Virus genome (UHGV): UHGV-1440563 | Source: a virus | Strand: one strand, 5' to 3' | Length of the DNA: 7,995 bases | Shown here: piece by piece, positions 1-7,995 of the stretch | Layout of the letters: every line of letters begins with the position of its first letter | How positions within the stretch are numbered: position 1 is the first letter of the stretch | Notes under the pieces: model-generated | Databases searched by the model: none | The model's input: the letters and a program-made list of their open reading frames with translations, nothing else | What the model was told of the DNA's origin: nothing | Program-made: the position numbers and the translations under genes

Positions 1-30
1 AAAATTTGGTTCGCACAATGACGTTATGCT

Positions 31-71
31 AAAAAGGCCGCTGCGGGATTCGATTTTCGCAACGGCCTTTT
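31..71. terminator. Bidirectional intrinsic-terminator-like hairpin: stem 36-45 GGCCGCTGCG pairs with 58-67 CGCAACGGCC (one C.A mismatch), 12-nt loop, flanked by AAAAA (31-35) and TTTT (68-71)
   Basis: Read directly from sequence. On the minus strand it lies about 70 nt downstream of the stop of the 77-aa ORF. Confidence 0.45.
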
Positions 72-101
72 CAACATAACGAGTCGTACATTATGCGCAC
101 C
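69..101 (-). other. dif-like XerC/XerD recombination site. Minus strand reads GGTGCGCATAA (XerC arm, identical to E. coli dif), TGTACGACTCG (11-nt central region), TTATGTTGAAA (XerD-like arm, 9 of 11 match to TTATGTTAAAT)
   Basis: Reverse complement of 69-101 compared with the E. coli dif consensus GGTGCGCATAA-TGTATA-TTATGTTAAAT recalled from memory. The arms match but the spacer is 11 nt instead of 6. Confidence 0.5.
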
Positions 102-139
102 AATGGTAAGGATGGCGGGAACTGGCGTTACCGGTGCCG

Positions 140-373
140 TCATTGGTCACAGACCGTAATCCACTGGCCCAGGACGTCTTTCAGGCAATGTTGGCATAAA
201 TCCAGTTTTAAGCGATTACTGTCACCAAAAATTGAACCGTATCCAGCTAAGTGATTAACAGACAGAAACTCATTGAACTCAATGTCATCTACCACCGTCT
301 TCGCATGGCGACCACAGCGATCGCAGGTCTTCGCACATAACATTACAGTATCGCTGGATGTGAAAAATTGCAT
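140..373 (-). CDS. Hypothetical 77-aa protein with zinc-ribbon-like Cys pairs (CDRC ... CQHC, about 40 residues apart); function unknown
   Basis: Strong Shine-Dalgarno (GAGGAGA, 5-6 nt before the ATG at 373) seen on the minus strand. Two CxxC pairs in the translation. Terminator-like hairpin downstream. No family recognised. Confidence 0.5.
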   Translation of the reverse strand: MQFFTSSDTVMLCAKTCDRCGRHAKTVVDDIEFNEFLSVNHLAGYGSIFGDSNRLKLDLCQHCLKDVLGQWITVCDQ

Positions 374-490
374 TTTATCTCCTCGTAATGCTGCCGCGCC
401 GAATCAGCAATAACGCTAAAAAAACAGAATTGTTCGGCTTGGCCAACCCCTGACACTAACAAAAGCAAGTTTTGTCATTGTCCGGGGTTA

Positions 491-799
491 TCATATAAAC
501 CAATAGACCGTCCTTACGCCATTCTGGTTATCAATAACATAGCCGCATTGTTTCCTTAAAAATTCTTCTGCTAAATCAATGGCTTTTACAGAAATCTCAT
601 AAGAAGGAAGTAAAGTGTATCCTTTCCCTTCACTGGCAGCTGCTTTGATCGCATCCAGAGTATTATCAATCAGTAACAGAGCAAGTGATGCTTCATTTAC
701 CTGAGCCGAAGAACTTCTGGCTGCAAGTGTCATTGTTTTTGCTTCTTCCGCTGTAATCGTTCGTTCTGCCAGAGCAGATAAAATCCCATAAGAATCCAT
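491..799 (-). CDS. Hypothetical 102-aa protein, Ala/Leu-rich and predicted helical; function unknown
   Basis: ORF begins 20 nt downstream (minus strand) of the hairpin that follows gIV. Weak SD (TGGGGT). Same strand as the phage genes. No family recognised. Confidence 0.45.
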   Translation of the reverse strand: MDSYGILSALAERTITAEEAKTMTLAARSSSAQVNEASLALLLIDNTLDAIKAAASEGKGYTLLPSYEISVKAIDLAEEFLRKQCGYVIDNQNGVRTVYWFI

Positions 800-819
800 T
801 AGTTACCCCAATCAATAAT

Positions 820-879
820 GTCCATTTGATGGATAGCGAGCAGGGCTCACGCACCTACCCGCTATCCATCAAAGTGGAC
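820..879 (-). other. Long imperfect hairpin: 19-bp stem (820-838 pairs with 860-879, one bulged nucleotide) and 21-nt loop, straddling the gIV stop codon. Candidate packaging signal or regulatory hairpin; no T-tract follows on the viral strand
   Basis: Inverted repeat GTCCATTTGATGGATAGCG / CGCTATCCATCAAAGTGGAC read directly. In Ff phages the packaging-signal hairpin sits immediately after gene IV. Confidence 0.4.
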
Positions 880-2134
880 GAATGATATGTGCTGTAAGCA
901 AAATATACATAATACGCTGTTCATTGCTGTCTGCCTTGCTACTGAAAATCCAGCCTATAAGAGGAATTTTACTTATAACTGGAACTGAACGCTCGGCATT
1001 GCTGAACGATGAATCGATAAGCCCCCCCAATAACAACGTCTGACCATCCTTAATCTGGACTGTCGTCTGAATCTGGCGCTGATTAGTAATAATATCGGAT
1101 GCCTGATCATCATTGCTGATTGAATCAGCGCGAGTGTCGATAGTCAGAACTAGTTGCCCGTTACCCATGACAACAGGCGTTACCTTGAGAGAAACGCCAA
1201 CATCATGACGCTCGATAGTCTGAAACGGATTATTTACCCCGGCAGATTCGCCCGTTACCTTTCCGGTGATAAACGGCACATTCTTACCTACGGAAATGTA
1301 ACCAGTCTGACCAGACTGAGTAAGAATACGCGGCGTTGAAATCACCTTAGAGCGTGAATTACTCTGGACAGCACGCAGAGACAGCGCCAACACGTTACCA
1401 TCAAAAATACCAAAAGAACCGCCCGCCGTAGAAAGAGCACTACCCAGTGCAGAAGTATTAAAGCCCCCCGCAACCTTATGACCGGATGCAGAACCTGCCG
1501 CAAACGATAAATCAACGCCATCAGACAAGCTGGTTTCAAACATCAGCGACTGAATGAGAACCTGATCGCGGGCAACATCCACAGAATTGATAAAATCGGA
1601 CAGAACCGGCAGCAGCTCGTCAGGCGCAGAAACAATCAGCGAGTTATTGCCTGGATAATCCACGACATTACCACCACCATTAGAATCAAGATAAATTTTA
1701 ATCAGTTGCTGAACATCGGACGATCTAACTTTTGTCAGCTTAAAATTTCTGACCGTAAGCGCCACAGGTACTGGCTGGTAAGATGGCTCAGAAGGAAAAG
1801 TATCATAAGACTGGTTATCAGAATCATCGGAATCCGAAACCATCTGTGAAGGTAATTTAGACGGCAAAGAGACTACCGCAGGATTGCCAGAAAGCATGAC
1901 AAAACCGTTAGCATTCAGAACAGACTTAAAGAAATCATCAATATTTGTTGGATTAACATCAGCATTAAATACGGTTACGTTTCCTTTAATATCAGGATTA
2001 ACAATAACAGGCTTGCCAGTTTTTGAAGAATACCACTGAACAAATGAGCGAACAGATGAATTATTTAAATTAACAGTTTCAGCAGAAACGCAGAATGAAC
2101 AGGCAAATAAAAAAGCAACAATAACAGAGCGCAT
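869..2134 (-). CDS. IV: pIV secretin (phage export channel), with N-terminal signal peptide
   Basis: Translation aligns along its length with M13 pIV, including near-identical C-terminal secretin blocks (VPFITGKVTGESAGVNNPFQTIER, LLLGGL, SKIPLIG). Start moved to the ATG at 2134 (MRSVIVAFLF...) which has an AGGAG SD; the track ORF extends 31 codons further upstream. Confidence 0.9.
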   Translation of the reverse strand: MRSVIVAFLFACSFCVSAETVNLNNSSVRSFVQWYSSKTGKPVIVNPDIKGNVTVFNADVNPTNIDDFFKSVLNANGFVMLSGNPAVVSLPSKLPSQMVSDSDDSDNQSYDTFPSEPSYQPVPVALTVRNFKLTKVRSSDVQQLIKIYLDSNGGGNVVDYPGNNSLIVSAPDELLPVLSDFINSVDVARDQVLIQSLMFETSLSDGVDLSFAAGSASGHKVAGGFNTSALGSALSTAGGSFGIFDGNVLALSLRAVQSNSRSKVISTPRILTQSGQTGYISVGKNVPFITGKVTGESAGVNNPFQTIERHDVGVSLKVTPVVMGNGQLVLTIDTRADSISNDDQASDIITNQRQIQTTVQIKDGQTLLLGGLIDSSFSNAERSVPVISKIPLIGWIFSSKADSNEQRIMYILLTAHIIRPL

Positions 2135-2141
2135 AATAATA

Positions 2142-2516
2142 TTACTCCTGACAGGTAACAGTCTGTAAATAACGGCCTTTTCTAATAACAACACGACAGG
2201 CATCTTTAATATCAACGGAATAACCATCTTTAATCAAATCAAAATACTGATATTTCATGCCTTTTGCATCAACAAACGTAACGGAAACGTCAAAGCCAAG
2301 TTGTGAAAAAGAATTAATAGAAAGTCGGGGTAAGTCACTGGACGAATCAGGCGTTACCGCCCTCGCCTGTTCAGCATAAGCAGATTTAATAGCTGAGATT
2401 TCATCAACATTCTTTCCAGACTGGAGCCAGAAACCAAACGCAAGCCCCAGCGCCAAAAAAGAAAGCATTAATATAAGACGGTTCGATTTGCGAAAATAAA
2501 TTTTAGTGAGGCGCAT
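2142..2516 (-). CDS. XI: pXI, in-frame internal restart product of gene I (C-terminal 124 aa)
   Basis: Internal Met at residue 241 of pI (MRLTKIYFRK) aligns with the M13 pXI start (MKLTKIYLKK). No convincing SD at proper spacing, so called by homology of position only. Confidence 0.5.
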   Translation of the reverse strand: MRLTKIYFRKSNRLILMLSFLALGLAFGFWLQSGKNVDEISAIKSAYAEQARAVTPDSSSDLPRLSINSFSQLGFDVSVTFVDAKGMKYQYFDLIKDGYSVDIKDACRVVIRKGRYLQTVTCQE

Positions 2517-3236
2517 ATAATAACTAAATCCTCTGTGAACAGAAAATTGACCGTGCGTGATAAATGGTGGCAAAAGCGAAAATGCGCCATGAGGATAATT
2601 ATCTGTGAACGCTTGTTTGGTATTGTAAGCAGAATAAAGAGATTTTCCTGTATATATCCATTTATCAACAGTGATTGAATTAACATTATCACCATATTTG
2701 ACAATGCCAAAGTGTACCTTTGGTAAAGAAAATCTCGCCCCTGAAACCAAATTCATAATGGAGCCAACAAAAGGAATGTTTAATTTATCTGAACGGCGAC
2801 AATAAACAACATGCTCAGCAAGCGCCAGACGAGCTTGCTTATCCATTATCGAAATATCCTGAATCAAAAATATAATATCCCAGCCTAATTTTCTGGCATG
2901 TAAAAACCAGTCAATAACAGGTTGTCTGTCTTTATCACCCCATGAGCGGGAATTAAACCAAGTACCACATTCATCAAGTACAAGGAGGCCATTACGGGAT
3001 TCATCGTAAGATGTATTCCCAGTACCAATAGCAAGTAAATCATTTAATGAAGGCTTGTCAGGAATGCGAATAACGCGCGTTTTTTTCGCATAACGCCCAA
3101 CCATAGGCATATTATGCAATTTAAGATCAAGATTAGTGGCAACAGGACAACCCTTAGCAAGTCTTTCCTGTATTCTGGAAACACTAACAAGTGTCTTGCC
3201 TGAGCCTAATTTGCCTGTTACTACATAAACCGCCAT
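2142..3236 (-). CDS. I: pI assembly ATPase (Zot-like, P-loop NTPase)
   Basis: N-terminus MAVYVVTGKLGSGKTLVSV matches M13 pI MAVYFVTGKLGSGKTLVSV (Walker A motif). Collinear similarity continues through LLVLDECGTWFN and HARKLGWDIIFL. The ATG directly abuts the pVI stop. Confidence 0.92.
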   Translation of the reverse strand: MAVYVVTGKLGSGKTLVSVSRIQERLAKGCPVATNLDLKLHNMPMVGRYAKKTRVIRIPDKPSLNDLLAIGTGNTSYDESRNGLLVLDECGTWFNSRSWGDKDRQPVIDWFLHARKLGWDIIFLIQDISIMDKQARLALAEHVVYCRRSDKLNIPFVGSIMNLVSGARFSLPKVHFGIVKYGDNVNSITVDKWIYTGKSLYSAYNTKQAFTDNYPHGAFSLLPPFITHGQFSVHRGFSYYMRLTKIYFRKSNRLILMLSFLALGLAFGFWLQSGKNVDEISAIKSAYAEQARAVTPDSSSDLPRLSINSFSQLGFDVSVTFVDAKGMKYQYFDLIKDGYSVDIKDACRVVIRKGRYLQTVTCQE

Positions 3237-3581
3237 TTAAATCACCCTGTTTGCATAATCAAGAAATTTTTGTTTTAAATCGAAAACAAAAACACTGATA
3301 CGAGTAACCATAATAACGTTAACACACGCCTGAAAATGGTCAGGCAATACAGACGCCATTAAATGGGAGAAATCAGCAGGTAAACCGTTATACATGACCT
3401 CAGCAAGGTACTGCATTAAAAGCGTAACAGTTGTTGTAATTAATGCGACCAATGCAAAGGCGATTAATCCTGTTCTGGTAGCAAGTCGAGCTAAAAAACT
3501 CGCCACATAGCCAATAAACAAAGGAACAAGACCAATAAGAAAACGCAACAATGCAGGAATACCTAATAATAAAGGCATCAC
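3237..3581 (-). CDS. VI: pVI minor coat protein (virion tip, membrane-embedded)
   Basis: [14 protein letters not shown]... aligns with M13 pVI MPVLLGIPLLLRF... and shares the C-terminal block FVFDLKQK vs FIFDVKQK. The ATG overlaps the pIII stop (ATGA); the second Met at 3578 may be the true start. Confidence 0.88.
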
Positions 3582-4855
3582 TCACCCCCTTTGCGAAGCA
3601 ATGAAGTTAAAGAAGTAAAGACATACCAGAACGTAAGGCAATAAAAAACCCATGAAAGAACATCTTTAATAGTCAGTAATTTATCGCAACCAATATCAAT
3701 CTGATAAACCTCTCCGGGAAAAATAATAAAATCAGAGCAGCCGTTACCATTGGGTAAATTAGGCAGCATAGCACCTTTATTTAAAAATGCTTCCCATAAA
3801 GCACCGTGAGAATCCTTTTCAATTCCCAATTCAGAATCAGCCAAAGTAGAAGCGCCATCTAATTCAGAGTCGCCCTTTCCATAACGAGAATCACCACCTG
3901 AAGGGTCAGCAAAACGGCCAGCCCCCCGCGTAAGATTGTTAATGGAATCGTCAAGACGATTTATATTATTCCTGGTTTGTTCATCGGCATTTTTTTTATC
4001 ATCTGATGAAGTGTCTTTCTCCGTTAATTTATCATGAATATCGCTGGCTATTTTGGGTGAAGCACCTTCGATCGCAGACTGAATATCACCTTTAGAAAGA
4101 CTGGAACCACTAGAGCCACCGCCAGAACTACCGCCAGAGCCACCGCCAGAACTACCGCCAGAACTACCGCCAGAGCCACCGCCAGAACTACCGCCAGAAC
4201 TACCGCCGCCAGACTCACCACCACCGGACTCACCACCGCCATTTTGGGGGGTTGAGGGTTTATCAGAGGGGTCAGCTACAGCACCTGTAGGCTTCCATGT
4301 TGCAGCGCAAACAGTACCATCACCCTGACAAACAATGACACCAGTAGCCTCATATTCACAGCCGTTATAGTAGATATAGCGACCACCATCATATGAATCA
4401 ACATTATTAAATACACCTTCTTCTGGCGGCTTCGCTTCACAAATTTCTTCTGGTGTCGGGTCAGTAGGTTTTTCATCAGGAACAGAACGCTGAATATTAC
4501 CAACAATATAAGCCGTTAAAGACCAATATTTATCCTTCTGCCCTGGTGAATCGCTGTAAGTACAATCACCAGTAAAAACAAGACGGAATTCAGAATCAGG
4601 CCAGATACCCTCATAAGTTGGTTTAACCCGAGTAAATACACTCTGAGCACTGGATTTAGCACCCTGACAAGCGGAGGCCTGCATAGCAGCATCAATATAG
4701 TAAACCGTTGTCTTAGAGCCATCCTGATTGGTTATTTGCTTACTTTCAGCGTAGGCAGAACTTTGATAAGTGGATTTAGTAATGCTTTCCCATGACTCAG
4801 CATGTGAAAAAGGAGAAATGAGGACAGCGGAAAGAATTAATATTTTCCTTTTCAT
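3578..4855 (-). CDS. III: pIII adsorption (attachment) protein: signal peptide, divergent N-terminal receptor-binding region, Gly/Ser linker, conserved C-terminal membrane anchor
   Basis: Start set at the internal ATG 4855 ([19 protein letters not shown], compare M13 MKKLLFAIPLVVPFYSHS). Gly/Ser-rich linker. C-terminus NKGAM...NGNG...IGCDKL...FWYVFTS resembles the M13 pIII C-terminal domain. Confidence 0.88.
4100..4240 (-). repeat. Tandem short-period repeats encoding the Gly/Ser-rich pIII interdomain linker (GGGES / GGSS / GGGS units)
   Basis: Reiterated accgccaga(a/g)c units visible on the plus strand; the translation is 47 residues of G, S and E. Confidence 0.85.
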
Positions 4856-4865
4856 AGTAACCCGC

Positions 4866-4891
4866 TTTAATAAAGGGGCAACGAGTGCCCC
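4866..4891 (-). terminator. Intrinsic terminator between gVIII and gIII: stem GGGGCA / TGCCCC (4875-4880 and 4886-4891), 5-nt loop, then TTTATTAAA on the viral strand
   Basis: Read directly. Position corresponds to the terminator that follows gene VIII in Ff phages. Confidence 0.6.
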
Positions 4892-4901
4892 TGAGTGAAA
4901 T

Positions 4902-5144
4902 TCAAACCGCTTTTGAAGAGAATTTTTTGAAAATACGAATGGCAAGCCCAGCGCCAACCACAGCCACAACAACAGGCCATACTTTACCAATGAGATCATT
5001 TGCCTGAGTCAACAAAGCATCCATTGCCTGGCCTGCATAATCAGTACCACCTGTAGCGCCTTCAGCCGCAAAAGAACTTGCAGAAATAAAAAGCGCAGTT
5101 GAAGCCAGAGCAACTTTATATTTAACAGTAGACAGAATTTTCAT
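4902..5144 (-). CDS. VIII: pVIII major coat protein precursor (signal peptide cleaved after SFA; 54-aa mature protein)
   Basis: The ...SFAAEG... cleavage region matches M13, and the basic C-terminus [11 protein letters not shown] matches M13 KLFKKFTSKAS. GGAG SD 9 nt upstream. Confidence 0.92.
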
Positions 5145-5163
5145 AGGAATAACTCCATTAAGG

Positions 5164-5259
5164 TTACATTAATCGGTCAGAAAATGATTTAAATGAACCG
5201 ACCGCATAGAAAAGGGCAAAACCAAAGGTATAAGCCCCGAAGAAATAAACGATATACAT
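5164..5259 (-). CDS. IX: pIX minor coat protein (31 aa)
   Basis: Hand translation MYIVYFFGAYTFGFALFYAVGSFKSFSDRLM resembles M13 pIX (MSVLVYSFASFVLGW...FTRLME). Start overlaps the pVII stop (TAATG). It is the C-terminal part of track ORF 5164-5388. Confidence 0.7.
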   Translation of the reverse strand: MYIVYFFGAYTFGFALFYAVGSFKSFSDRLM

Positions 5260-6898: not shown

Positions 6899-7081
6899 AT
6901 GGCAAAGCGCACGACTTATAACGTGACGGAAGAAAGAAAAATGAAACTAGAACGACTGGCTATAAATGCCAGTGTAAAACTAGGAAAAACAATTACATGG
7001 ACAGAGATTTTAGGTTATCTGATTGATAACTACTCTAAAGATGCAGCAGAAGATCTCATGTCTGCCAAACAAAAGGATTAA
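6899..7081 (+). CDS. Small (60 aa) putative ribbon-helix-helix (CopG/Arc-like) DNA-binding protein
   Basis: Pattern of short polar/hydrophobic strand (TTYNVT), helix (EERKMKLERLAINA), Gly-containing turn and second helix (ITWTEILGYLIDNY) resembles CopG-type RHH repressors. Only a weak SD. Divergent from gII, with the repeat array between them. Confidence 0.5.
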   Translation: MAKRTTYNVTEERKMKLERLAINASVKLGKTITWTEILGYLIDNYSKDAAEDLMSAKQKD

Positions 7082-7233: not shown

Positions 7234-7968
7234 ATGATCACTATAGAAGAAGCAACATCGGTCCATGAATATTTAACAAATTACTATCAAAACTCTGATG
7301 ATCCTATCTCTCCTCCGGGAATAAAAAACATAGAGCTTTTAGAGTCTGCCATAGCAAGACCTTTTATGACCATGAACAGAAAGGATGTCTATCCAGATGA
7401 TTTAGATAAAGCCGCAGCTCTATTTCATGGTGTCATATCCAACCACTGTTTCCATAATGGTAATAAAAGAACAGCACTTCTACTAACCATGTGCTTTTTA
7501 GACCGAGCTGGATATTGGCTGGATAAGTGTGATGACCTGCAACTCTTTGAATTTACAAGAAGTGTTGCGGCACATGAGATATGTAAAAATAGAATTGATG
7601 AAATAAAAACAATCAAGGCATTTTTCCGAAGTAATTCACGGAAGAAAAAAATCACAGATGAACAATTGAGTTTTATTGCATTAAGCAGGCATCTAACCAA
7701 CGCAGGTTTCAATATAGAAGACGATGGTGACTATTACTCTATCTTTAAAAATAATAAAAGATATACAAAAATAATAAAAAAAGGCGCATCAGGACATGAA
7801 AAATACGATCCACAATACATAAAATCCCTTAGAAAAAGATTGCTTCTTACCCCGAAGTATGGATGGGATAGCATAAGGTTTTATCAATTATATTCATCAT
7901 TGACGGAAAACATTGGTGAATTATTACGTTTACGTGGAGAGGTAATGGACTGGCTTGCAAAAATATAA
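7234..7968 (+). CDS. Doc/Fic-family protein (death-on-curing-like toxin domain, residues about 1-125) fused to an unassigned Lys-rich C-terminal region of about 120 aa
   Basis: Motif HCFHNGNKR (residues 71-79, nt 7444-7470) fits the Doc signature HxFx(D/N)(A/G)NKR. The surrounding region aligns with P1 Doc as I recall it (...PGI.N.ELLESAIARP..., NKRTALL..., ...AAHEI). GGAAG SD 6 nt upstream. Confidence 0.8.
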   Translation: MITIEEATSVHEYLTNYYQNSDDPISPPGIKNIELLESAIARPFMTMNRKDVYPDDLDKAAALFHGVISNHCFHNGNKRTALLLTMCFLDRAGYWLDKCDDLQLFEFTRSVAAHEICKNRIDEIKTIKAFFRSNSRKKKITDEQLSFIALSRHLTNAGFNIEDDGDYYSIFKNNKRYTKIIKKGASGHEKYDPQYIKSLRKRLLLTPKYGWDSIRFYQLYSSLTENIGELLRLRGEVMDWLAKI

Positions 7969-7995
7969 TTAAAAAATTTGTTTGGTAGCTGGATA

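What the first reader, a model, noticed from the sequence alone, without database searches (positions are those of the whole stretch)
140..799. Two-gene accessory module (102-aa helical protein and 77-aa zinc-ribbon protein) occupying the post-gIV intergenic position
Ff phages have non-coding origin and packaging DNA after gene IV. Here two same-strand ORFs follow, each with its own SD, closed by a terminator and then the dif-like site. The 77-aa protein has CxxC...CxxC spacing typical of a zinc ribbon. Neither protein resembles any family I recognise. Pair size and arrangement are compatible with a small toxin-antitoxin, regulatory or anti-defence module.
Basis: partly seen in the sequence, partly recalled or inferred. 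Interest (0 to 1): 0.6.

Follow-up and report, generated by a model that had tools for sequence, protein, structure and literature searches.

The report
Two unlinked cargo genes in inovirus
The two small genes after gene IV are real, selected accessory genes of a CUS-1/YpfPhi-type filamentous prophage, already noted in the literature as unknown ORFs; they are not an obligate pair, and the 77-aa one is a free-standing copy of a large uncharacterised zinc-finger domain that elsewhere is attached to antitoxin modules.

Summary
ORF102 (799..491, minus strand) and ORF77 (373..140, minus strand) are real genes. Each has its own Shine-Dalgarno sequence, and both are under purifying selection (dN/dS 0.16 and 0.08-0.11). 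The window is one unit of a dif-integrating CUS-1/YpfPhi-type inovirus. The two ORFs fill the cargo slot between gIV and attP. A published review describes two function-unknown ORFs there (YPO2280a/YPO2281 homologs), where CTXphi carries ctxAB.

They are not a conserved module. A sister Salmonella phage keeps ORF102 without ORF77. At least two other inovirus lineages, and several plasmids, carry ORF77 homologs without ORF102. ORF102 is restricted to this lineage and its predicted fold is uncertain.

ORF77 is a confident treble-clef CxxC...CxxC zinc domain (pLDDT 91) with no Pfam model and no similar solved structure. Its family has 1,238 cluster representatives and is strongly acidic. In other proteins the domain is fused to Xre/MbcA/ParS or TacA antitoxin domains, or is encoded directly after a complete Xre-type antitoxin gene.

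The most likely role is a small protein-binding modulator linked to toxin-antitoxin modules. This is inferred, not shown.

The parts
491..799 (-). ORF102: 102-aa acidic protein (pI 4.7), restricted to this phage lineage. The N-terminal ~35 residues vary; the C-terminal half is conserved (FLRKxCGYVIDNQNGVRTxYWFI is invariant).
140..373 (-). ORF77: 77-aa acidic (pI 5.4) treble-clef-like zinc-finger protein with CxxC (17-20) and CxxC (60-63). It is a free-standing member of a large uncurated domain family.
   Evidence: phrog_5435, 4.5e-46; 1238 cluster representatives at E<=1e-3; pLDDT 91.4; no similar solved structure; dN/dS 0.08-0.11.
806..810 (-). Shine-Dalgarno-like TGGGG, 6 nt upstream of the ORF102 ATG.
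   Evidence: Read from the sequence.
379..384 (-). Strong Shine-Dalgarno GAGGAG, 5 nt upstream of the ORF77 ATG.
   Evidence: Read from the sequence.
444..490 (-). RNA hairpin starting directly after the ORF102 stop codon, in the 117-bp spacer between the two ORFs. A U7 run follows about 20 nt later. Possible attenuator or transcript-stabilising element.
   Evidence: -40.5 kcal/mol for the spacer, z -3.5. Not called as a terminator.
820..879 (-). Long perfect-stem hairpin overlapping the gIV stop codon, with no T-run. Candidate packaging signal, in the same position as the Ff packaging signal.
   Evidence: I2; ssDNA -26.3 kcal/mol, z -7.6. The function is inferred from position only.
6..103 (-). 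Forked ssDNA hairpin: a CTXphi-type folded attP(+). It pairs dif-like site A (69-101, minus strand: GGTGCGCATAA-TGTACGACTCG-TTATGTTGAAA) with dif-like site B (8-34, plus strand: GGTTCGCACAA-TGACG-TTATGCTAAAA).
   Evidence: I1; z -5.6. The review describes inverted XerC/XerD sites in the packaged YpfPhi genome.
869..2227 (-). gIV secretin, the last morphogenesis gene. It marks the upstream edge of the cargo slot (RefSeq annotates a 421-aa version).
   Evidence: PF00263 Secretin in the relatives.

Best explanation
SHOWN: The window is one unit of a dif-integrating filamentous prophage of the CUS-1/YpfPhi type. ORF102 and ORF77 are two real, independently inherited accessory genes. They occupy the variable cargo slot between the secretin gene gIV (plus a packaging-signal-like hairpin) and the folded attP. 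ORF77 is a stand-alone copy of a widespread, uncurated, strongly acidic treble-clef zinc-finger domain. Other members of that family are fused N-terminally to toxin-binding antitoxin domains (Xre/MbcA/ParS_C, TacA-like), or are encoded immediately downstream of a complete Xre-HTH + Xre/MbcA/ParS_C antitoxin gene. INFERRED: ORF77 acts by protein-protein binding, not DNA binding, as a small modulator that plugs into toxin-antitoxin or abortive-infection type modules of the host or of co-resident elements. The phage carries it as a fitness or persistence gene, not as part of virion production. ORF102 is a separate, fast-diverging accessory protein of this lineage alone. Its possibly winged-helix-like C-terminal half hints at a nucleic-acid- or protein-docking role, but that is unresolved. 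Both genes are probably expressed by read-through from the morphogenesis operon, with a hairpin between them tuning ORF77 levels. My confidence in the anatomy and independence part is about 0.9, and in the proposed mode of action of ORF77 about 0.3.
For: Phage identity and slot: the gene order is gII-gV-gVIII-gIII-gVI-gI-gIV-ORF102-ORF77. The prophage sits in tandem copies next to hipBA in E. coli. An identical 7,938-bp circular replicative form exists in Salmonella. dif or attP lies just downstream in the relatives. The review describes two unknown ORFs next to attR at the ctxAB position. Real genes: dN/dS is 0.16 and 0.08-0.11. Independence. ORF102 occurs alone in L002-4 and L088-89. ORF77 occurs alone in L010, L014, L092-94, the plasmid contigs L005-8, and plasmids. 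Family size and fusions: 1238 representatives. Of 34 long members, 7 carry PF09722, 1 carries TacA1 and 2 carry DUF4926. A complete Xre antitoxin gene lies directly upstream in L029, L030 and L037, with homologous upstream genes in L036 and L042. The fusions lack a canonical toxin gene next to them. Fold: pLDDT 91.4, with a zinc knuckle followed by CxxC at a helix N-terminus. Acidic domain: median pI 4.56, and 96% of 57 members are below pI 7. Contexts rich in mobile-element and defence genes.
Against: No experiment exists for any family member that I could find. Most family members have no fixed neighbour, so the antitoxin link rests on a minority: 7+1 of 34 long forms and 5 of about 56 genome loci. 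ORF77 lacks the C-terminal extensions seen in the antitoxin-linked members. Acidity argues against DNA binding but does not prove protein binding. The equivalence to YPO2280a/YPO2281 is inferred from position, phage type and the review's description. I could not align against those sequences. The ORF102 model is only moderately confident, being built from 4 sequences.
Confidence: 0.5

Rival explanations
1. ORF102 and ORF77 are a genuine type II toxin-antitoxin pair. ORF102 is the upstream antitoxin and ORF77 the downstream zinc-finger toxin, and together they stabilise the prophage or episome.
For: The gene order and sizes are canonical. ORF77-family genes occupy the toxin position after complete Xre/MbcA/ParS antitoxin genes in L029, L030 and L037, with no RES toxin present. 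The fusion proteins lack a separate toxin gene, so the zinc domain could itself be the effector. Many invariant polar residues (D18, E32, E35, Y45, S47, D51, Q61, H62) are compatible with an active or binding site. The pair is always together in the 49 E. coli genomes that carry it.
Against: ORF77 homologs sit alone after gIV in other inoviruses and on plasmids. ORF102 sits alone in the sister Salmonella phage. The genes are 117 bp apart with a hairpin between them and separate SDs. ORF102 shows no similarity to the Xre-type antitoxins or to any antitoxin family. An unneutralised toxin would be odd in inoviruses that carry ORF77 alone.
Confidence: 0.12
2. ORF77 is a zinc-finger DNA-binding transcription factor. 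In the fusions the domain replaces the HTH of Xre-type antitoxins. In the phage it regulates phage or host genes.
For: In the fusions the domain takes the N-terminal place normally held by the Xre-like HTH. On Proteus plasmids the homolog is divergent from a SIR2-family gene, a typical regulator layout. The weak fold neighbours are nucleic-acid-binding zinc modules such as eS26, eS21 and the PARP zinc fingers.
Confidence: 0.18
3. One or both proteins are phage-encoded accessory factors for Xer-mediated integration or excision at dif, functionally like XafT of TLCphi. That would explain the conserved position directly next to attP.
For: ORF77 homologs are the last gene before dif or attP in several inovirus lineages whose secretins are only 23-29% identical. 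The review notes unexplained differences in YpfPhi integration behaviour.
Against: Most of the ORF77 family is in non-inovirus contexts. The sister phage integrates at dif without ORF77. Neither protein matches the XafT domain family (DUF3653, as I recall it) or any recombinase-associated domain; no such family appears among the Pfam hits at E<=1.
Confidence: 0.07
4. They are host-directed fitness or virulence factors, the functional counterpart of ctxAB at the same slot. They would contribute to the modest in vivo advantage reported for YpfPhi and CUS-1.
For: The position is the same as ctxAB, and the whole phage is reported to give an in vivo fitness benefit. The pair is at least 99.4% conserved in the E. 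coli genomes that carry it, most of them human isolates.
Against: Neither sequence shows an obvious signal peptide or transmembrane segment; both are hydrophilic and acidic (GRAVY -0.03 and 0.11). The ORF77 family is spread through environmental Betaproteobacteria and phages with no link to pathogenesis.
Confidence: 0.08

Closest known systems
YPO2280a / YPO2281 of Yersinia pestis YpfPhi and their homologs in E. coli CUS-1
   Same: Two ORFs with no predictable function lie after the secretion module and immediately next to attR/dif, in a dif-integrating inovirus that forms tandem arrays (review). The window has this layout. Its ~7.1-kb conserved block plus a variable attL-side segment also matches the review's description.
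   Different: I could not align against the Y. pestis or CUS-1 sequences themselves, so identity is inferred. This window's attL-side cargo is a 244-aa Fic/Doc protein, not the orf1/orf1a or YPO2271/2272 genes named in the review.
ctxAB cargo slot of CTXphi
   Same: Accessory genes lie between the assembly/secretion genes and the Xer-dependent attachment site, and the attP is a folded hairpin of two inverted dif-like sites.
   Different: There is no similarity to cholera toxin. The proteins are small, acidic and cytoplasmic-looking, with no evidence of secretion.
Xre/MbcA/ParS antitoxins paired with RES/MbcT/ParT toxins (COG5642-COG5654)
   Same: ORF77-family domains are fused to PF09722, or encoded right after a complete Xre-HTH + PF09722 gene. 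In the canonical operon that is the toxin's position (the usual COG5642-RES operon pairing is described; the antitoxin-first gene order is from my own knowledge).
   Different: ORF77 itself has no PF09722 domain and no such neighbour. It is not a RES or ADP-ribosyltransferase domain. No RES gene accompanies the family members I examined.
MqsA (YgiT) N-terminal zinc-binding antitoxin domain
   Same: It is a small CxxC...CxxC zinc module found in an antitoxin.
Accessory TA and superinfection-exclusion genes of other inoviruses (e.g. PfiAT of Pf4; survey by Roux et al. 2019)
   Same: Inoviruses commonly carry small accessory genes, including type II TA pairs and exclusion factors. This window also carries a Fic/Doc-family gene.
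   Different: ORF102 and ORF77 match none of the known toxin, antitoxin or defence models and are not a conserved pair.

Membership tests
Type II toxin-antitoxin pair | The two genes co-occur as a conserved unit wherever either is found | tested here: not met
   ORF102 occurs without ORF77 in L002-4 and L088-89. ORF77 homologs occur without ORF102 in L005-8, L010, L014, L092-94 and about 100 other loci.
Type II toxin-antitoxin pair | Tight operon: overlapping or closely spaced co-oriented genes | tested here: inconclusive
   The genes are co-oriented with no promoter detected between them. But a 117-bp spacer with a strong hairpin separates them, and each has its own SD.
Type II toxin-antitoxin pair | At least one partner belongs to a recognised toxin or antitoxin family | tested here: not met
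   Pfam, NCBIfam and PADLOC give nothing significant for either protein. Only other members of the ORF77 family carry antitoxin domains.
Type II toxin-antitoxin pair | One product is toxic and the other neutralises it by direct binding | not testable with these tools
   This needs expression and interaction experiments. No multimer structure prediction was available.
Zinc ribbon / treble-clef zinc finger | Four conserved Zn ligands arranged as CxxC...CxxC | tested here: met
   C17, C20, C60 and C63 are present. All four Cys are invariant in 34 long members. In 57 short members three are invariant and C17 is conserved in at least 90%. One exception: C17 is Ser in P0018.
Zinc ribbon / treble-clef zinc finger | First ligand pair on a beta-hairpin knuckle and second pair at the N-terminus of a helix (treble clef), rather than two knuckles (classical ribbon) | tested here: met
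   The AF2 model (pLDDT 91.4) has E14-16/E23-25 flanking C17-C20, and C60-C63 opening helix 61-71. Its weak fold neighbours are treble-clef modules such as RING, FYVE, C1 and the PARP zinc fingers. I could not inspect the coordinates.
Zinc ribbon / treble-clef zinc finger | Binds zinc | not testable with these tools
   Needs metal analysis of purified protein.
MqsA/YgiT-type zinc antitoxin domain | Sequence-profile or fold similarity to the MqsA N-terminal domain | tested here: not met
RES/MbcT/ParT toxin (usual partner of Xre/MbcA/ParS antitoxins) | RES or ADP-ribosyltransferase-like domain of about 160 aa | tested here: not met
   ORF77 is 77 aa, has no RES hit at E<=1, and has a zinc-finger fold.
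YPO2280a/YPO2281-type inovirus ORFs (YpfPhi/CUS-1) | The last two ORFs between the pIV secretin gene and attR/dif of a dif-integrating, tandem-forming inovirus of Enterobacterales | tested here: met
   matched against the description.
YPO2280a/YPO2281-type inovirus ORFs (YpfPhi/CUS-1) | Sequence identity to the named Y. pestis and CUS-1 ORFs | not tested
   No Y. pestis or CUS-1 record was reachable. The only support is that both exact proteins are listed by UniRef for 19-20 Enterobacterales taxa.
Winged-helix DNA-binding domain (for ORF102) | H-S-H-H-S-S topology with significant structural similarity to winged-helix proteins | tested here: inconclusive
Known anti-phage defence system component | Match to a PADLOC model | tested here: not met
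   One search gives nothing for ORF102 and only a chance-level Cas8b hit (E 0.023) for ORF77.
Xer activation factor (XafT-like) | XafT-type HTH domain (DUF3653, as I recall it) | tested here: not met
   No such family appears among the Pfam hits at E<=1 for either protein.

The most novel reading that the evidence does not exclude
The ORF77-type zinc finger is a new effector (toxin-like) or anti-antitoxin domain whose natural partner is the Xre/MbcA/ParS_C toxin-binding domain. It would define an unrecognised branch of type II TA or fused-TA systems with over 1,000 sequence clusters. Filamentous phages, including the plague-associated YpfPhi lineage, would have captured the free domain to manipulate host TA or abortive-infection modules.
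Probability: 0.15. Interest if true: 0.7.

Novelty: new member of a known kind. Interest (0 to 1): 0.42.

Why it matters
These appear to be the two ORFs that the YpfPhi review singles out as function-unknown, saying that identifying their functions could give important insight into what the phage does. YpfPhi is stably integrated in the third-pandemic Y. pestis lineage. CUS-1 is found in a high-virulence E. coli K1 clone. Showing that the two genes are separable redirects experiments away from a "pair" model. Showing that one belongs to a very large, structurally novel, antitoxin-associated zinc-finger family gives a concrete, testable lead. It also flags an uncurated domain family of over 1,200 clusters that deserves a profile model and a structure.

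Tried and rejected
- Pfam, NCBIfam and PADLOC scans of both proteins gave only chance-level hits.
- tblastn against deposited phage genomes found no match for either protein, although both match PHROG families.
- Sequence search against PDB chains found only trivial C2H2-knuckle similarity for ORF77. For ORF102 it found a non-significant match (E 0.26) to a 'PAAR repeat-containing protein' chain (6drh_B), which I dismissed.
- A second, profile-based homolog search for ORF102 found nothing new.
- I considered an MqsA-like zinc antitoxin domain and rejected it.
- I considered ORF102 as an Xre/MbcA/ParS-type antitoxin and rejected it.
- The Rfam scan of 1-950 returned only sub-threshold matches to generic hairpins.
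- Clustering of neighbours found no universal partner for the ORF77 family. The only cross-lineage recurrences were the inovirus genes gIV and Zot.
- The first related-loci scan with the 57-sequence alignment failed for lack of a conserved stretch. I repeated it with the 7-sequence alignment.
- Literature searches for YPO2281, and for zinc/antitoxin/DUF2384/COG5642, found no characterisation. Gonzalez et al. 2002 is not held in the library.

Full report
**What the window is.** All long ORFs on the minus strand form a complete inovirus: gII, gV, gVIII, gIII, gVI, gI (Zot-like) and gIV (secretin), followed by the two ORFs in question. On the plus strand are a 60-aa protein divergent from gII and a 244-aa Fic/Doc-family protein. 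In E. coli KFu015 the same DNA is present as three tandem copies of a ~7,974-bp unit next to hipBA, the chromosomal terminus/dif region. In Salmonella it exists as a 7,938-bp circular 'plasmid' with identical ORF102 and ORF77. That circle is the replicative form, and it confirms the circular order gIV -> ORF102 -> ORF77 -> attP <- Doc <- p60 -> gII. This is the biology described for YpfPhi of Yersinia pestis and CUS-1 of E. coli K1: dif integration, tandem arrays and an extrachromosomal form. A review states that these phages carry two ORFs with no predictable function (YPO2280a and YPO2281, and their CUS-1 homologs) immediately next to attR, where CTXphi carries ctxAB. I could not align against those named sequences, so the equivalence is an inference from position, phage type and the review's description. 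It is a strong one.

**Checking the observation.** ORF102 is at 799..491 and ORF77 at 373..140, both on the minus strand. ORF102 is preceded by TGGGG six bases upstream. ORF77 is preceded by GAGGAG five bases upstream (sequence). Both are real genes. Against a 61%-identical ortholog ORF102 has dN/dS 0.16. Against 79%- and 71%-identical homologs ORF77 has dN/dS 0.11 and 0.075, which is in the range of the phage's core genes. Both match PHROG families of unknown function. Both exact sequences are seen on at least 1,000 contigs. The pair is present in 49 of 5,426 complete E. coli genomes, always together, at 99.4% identity or more, with a median of two copies and up to 16 per genome.

**The 'terminator' and the region after gIV.** On the packaged strand, bases 6-103 fold into one long forked hairpin. 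It pairs a dif-like site on the minus strand (69-101) with a second, inverted one on the plus strand (8-34), at -33.7 kcal/mol and z -5.6. This is a CTXphi-type folded attP, as the review proposes for YpfPhi. A simple consensus scan finds no intrinsic terminator and no sigma-70 promoter anywhere in 1-950. The two ORFs are therefore probably read through from the morphogenesis operon. The idea that coding DNA has replaced the Ff-type non-coding region is only half right. A strong hairpin with no T-run (820-879, z -7.6) sits exactly at the gIV stop, where Ff has its packaging signal.

**The two genes are not a module.**
- A sister Salmonella inovirus has core proteins 80-95% identical to the window's. 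It keeps an ORF102 ortholog (60-61% identity) right after gIV but has no ORF77. Its dif site lies 419 bp further on.
- ORF77 homologs of 56-79% identity sit directly after gIV in Phytobacter and Klebsiella inoviruses (L010, L014) whose secretins are only 23-29% identical to the window's, and also in L092 and L093. L094 carries an ORF77 homolog (57%) as well. None of these has ORF102. In L010 a perfect dif follows 39 bp later.
- ORF77 homologs also occur on plasmid-like contigs, on small Proteus and Providencia plasmids next to a SIR2-family gene, and in many chromosomal and viral loci.
- ORF102 has a synonymous divergence of 1.56 against 0.40 for the adjacent gIV, so it has a different history from its neighbour.
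- Within the window the genes are 117 bp apart, with a strong RNA hairpin directly after the ORF102 stop codon.

**The family's link to antitoxins.** Of the top 146 relatives, 67 are stand-alone proteins of 100 aa or fewer and 34 are 150 aa or longer. Among those 34, seven carry a C-terminal Xre/MbcA/ParS toxin-binding antitoxin domain (PF09722, best E 3e-18). One carries a TacA-like antitoxin domain and two carry DUF4926. Where context was available, these fusions have no conventional toxin gene beside them. Independently, in Hydrogenophaga and Polaromonas loci, a complete Xre-HTH + PF09722 antitoxin gene lies directly upstream of, and co-oriented with, an ORF77-family gene. In the canonical COG5642-RES operon that position belongs to the toxin. 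Two different arrangements, fusion in one order and adjacency in the other, point to a functional and probably physical link between this zinc finger and the antitoxin-type domain. The domain core is strongly acidic across the family: median pI 4.56, net charge about -5, and 96% of members below pI 7. That argues against a DNA-binding role and for protein binding. Otherwise the family's neighbours are heterogeneous and rich in mobile-element and defence genes (transposases, TniQ, integrases, SIR2, STAND NTPases, HicA, AbiEi, Lar). The only neighbours that recur across lineages are the inovirus genes gIV and Zot.

**Most likely mechanism.** Shown: there are two independent, selected cargo genes in the gIV-attP slot of a CUS-1/YpfPhi-type phage, and ORF77 is a free-standing member of a large antitoxin-associated zinc-finger family. 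Inferred: ORF77 works by binding a protein partner of the toxin-antitoxin or abortive-infection type, modulating such systems in the host or in co-resident elements. It would serve phage persistence rather than virion production, and ORF102 would act separately. I put about 0.9 on the anatomy and about 0.3 on this mode of action. The rivals are:
- a true ORF102/ORF77 toxin-antitoxin pair (0.12), disfavoured by their separability and by inoviruses that carry ORF77 alone;
- a DNA-binding regulator (0.18), disfavoured by the acidity;
- a Xer accessory factor (0.07), suggested by the position next to attP but disfavoured by the family's wide non-inovirus distribution;
- a host-directed virulence or fitness factor (0.08).

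**Novelty and verdict.** The existence of these two ORFs, and their unknown status, is already in the literature. Accessory genes in this slot, and TA-type cargo in inoviruses, are known kinds. New here, as far as I could find, are three points. The two genes are independent. ORF77 recurs after gIV in divergent inoviruses. ORF77 belongs to a very large, structurally unmatched zinc-finger family wired to Xre/MbcA/ParS and TacA antitoxin modules. That is a useful lead, not a discovery of a new kind of system. Interest is moderate.

Noticed in passing
window 6-103 (dif-like sites at 8-34 on the plus strand and 69-101 on the minus strand): Two inverted dif-like sites fold, on the packaged strand, into a forked hairpin with paired XerC and XerD arms and a bulged central region (-33.7 kcal/mol, z -5.6). 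This is a CTXphi-type attP(+), not merely a terminator.
   Followed up: partly
window 820-879: A roughly 28-bp-stem hairpin overlaps the gIV stop codon (z -7.6) and has no T-run. It is a candidate packaging signal, at the same relative position as in Ff phages.
   Followed up: partly
window 7234-7968 (plus strand) and 6899-7081 (plus strand): The 244-aa protein has a Fic/Doc domain only in residues 3-89, a long C-terminal extension, and no obvious Phd-type antitoxin. The gene is missing from all window-type IMG/VR relatives, whereas the 60-aa protein upstream is present in most of them. Doc is therefore variable attL-side cargo, and p60 is probably the phage regulator rather than its antitoxin.
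   Followed up: partly
L069 386-703; L070 2807-3142; proteins P0005, P0024 and many members of cluster 1: There are in-frame chimeras of the gII N-terminus (43-83 aa) with the C-terminal part of ORF102 or ORF77. They come from prophage derivatives in which every gene from gV to gIV is deleted. They are seen in many independent assemblies (P0024 alone stands for 70 sequences). They could be decayed prophages or miniphage-like deletion derivatives.
   Followed up: partly
window 24-143 (minus strand): A 39-aa ORF starts with an ATGA overlap on the ORF77 stop codon and runs through the attP sites. Frameshifted or extended ORF77 variants (P0014, P0020) read into the same DNA. It is probably not a gene, but the overlap is of the type seen in translational coupling.
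   Followed up: no
L009 (JARKOR010000214.1): A contig labelled as a Candidatus Nanosynbacter MAG carries this phage with gIV-ORF77 at 99-100% protein identity (gIII 95%). This is almost certainly a binning or contamination artefact.
   Followed up: no
NZ_CP092647.1 (E. coli EC5502): This genome has 16-17 copies of the region, against a median of 2. It is an unusually large amplification of the prophage.
   Followed up: no
L005 3962-5156 (also L006-L008): The plasmid-borne ORF77 homolog P0018 has Ser in place of the first zinc-ligand Cys. It is followed by a 77-88-aa coiled-coil-like ORF whose longest reading overlaps its stop codon, and then by a GNAT acetyltransferase. The contig also carries ParM/StbA, ParB, YubE, a DNA methylase and UmuDC-like genes.
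   Followed up: partly
L072 (Proteus terrae pZF2-7kb) 2142-5202; also L012: On small Proteus and Providencia plasmids the ORF77 homolog (about 55% identity) is divergently adjacent to an ~845-aa SIR2-family gene, next to a RelE/ParE TA pair.
   Followed up: no
window 7975-7995 compared with 1-21: The right end of the window diverges from the start of the unit just after AAAATTTG, immediately before the first dif-like arm. The window therefore seems to end at a prophage junction rather than inside a perfect tandem repeat.
   Followed up: no
proteins P0029-P0162: Thirteen of the top 146 ORF77-family members carry a short conserved motif, HGGEFP (often as FDPxRHGGEFP), shortly after the zinc domain. 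Some of these proteins end soon after it. ORF77 lacks the motif.
   Followed up: no
L092 3996-8641: One 13-kb viral contig combines gII and gV that are 86-94% identical to the window's with a secretin only 29% identical. It is either a mosaic inovirus or two different inoviruses side by side.
   Followed up: no
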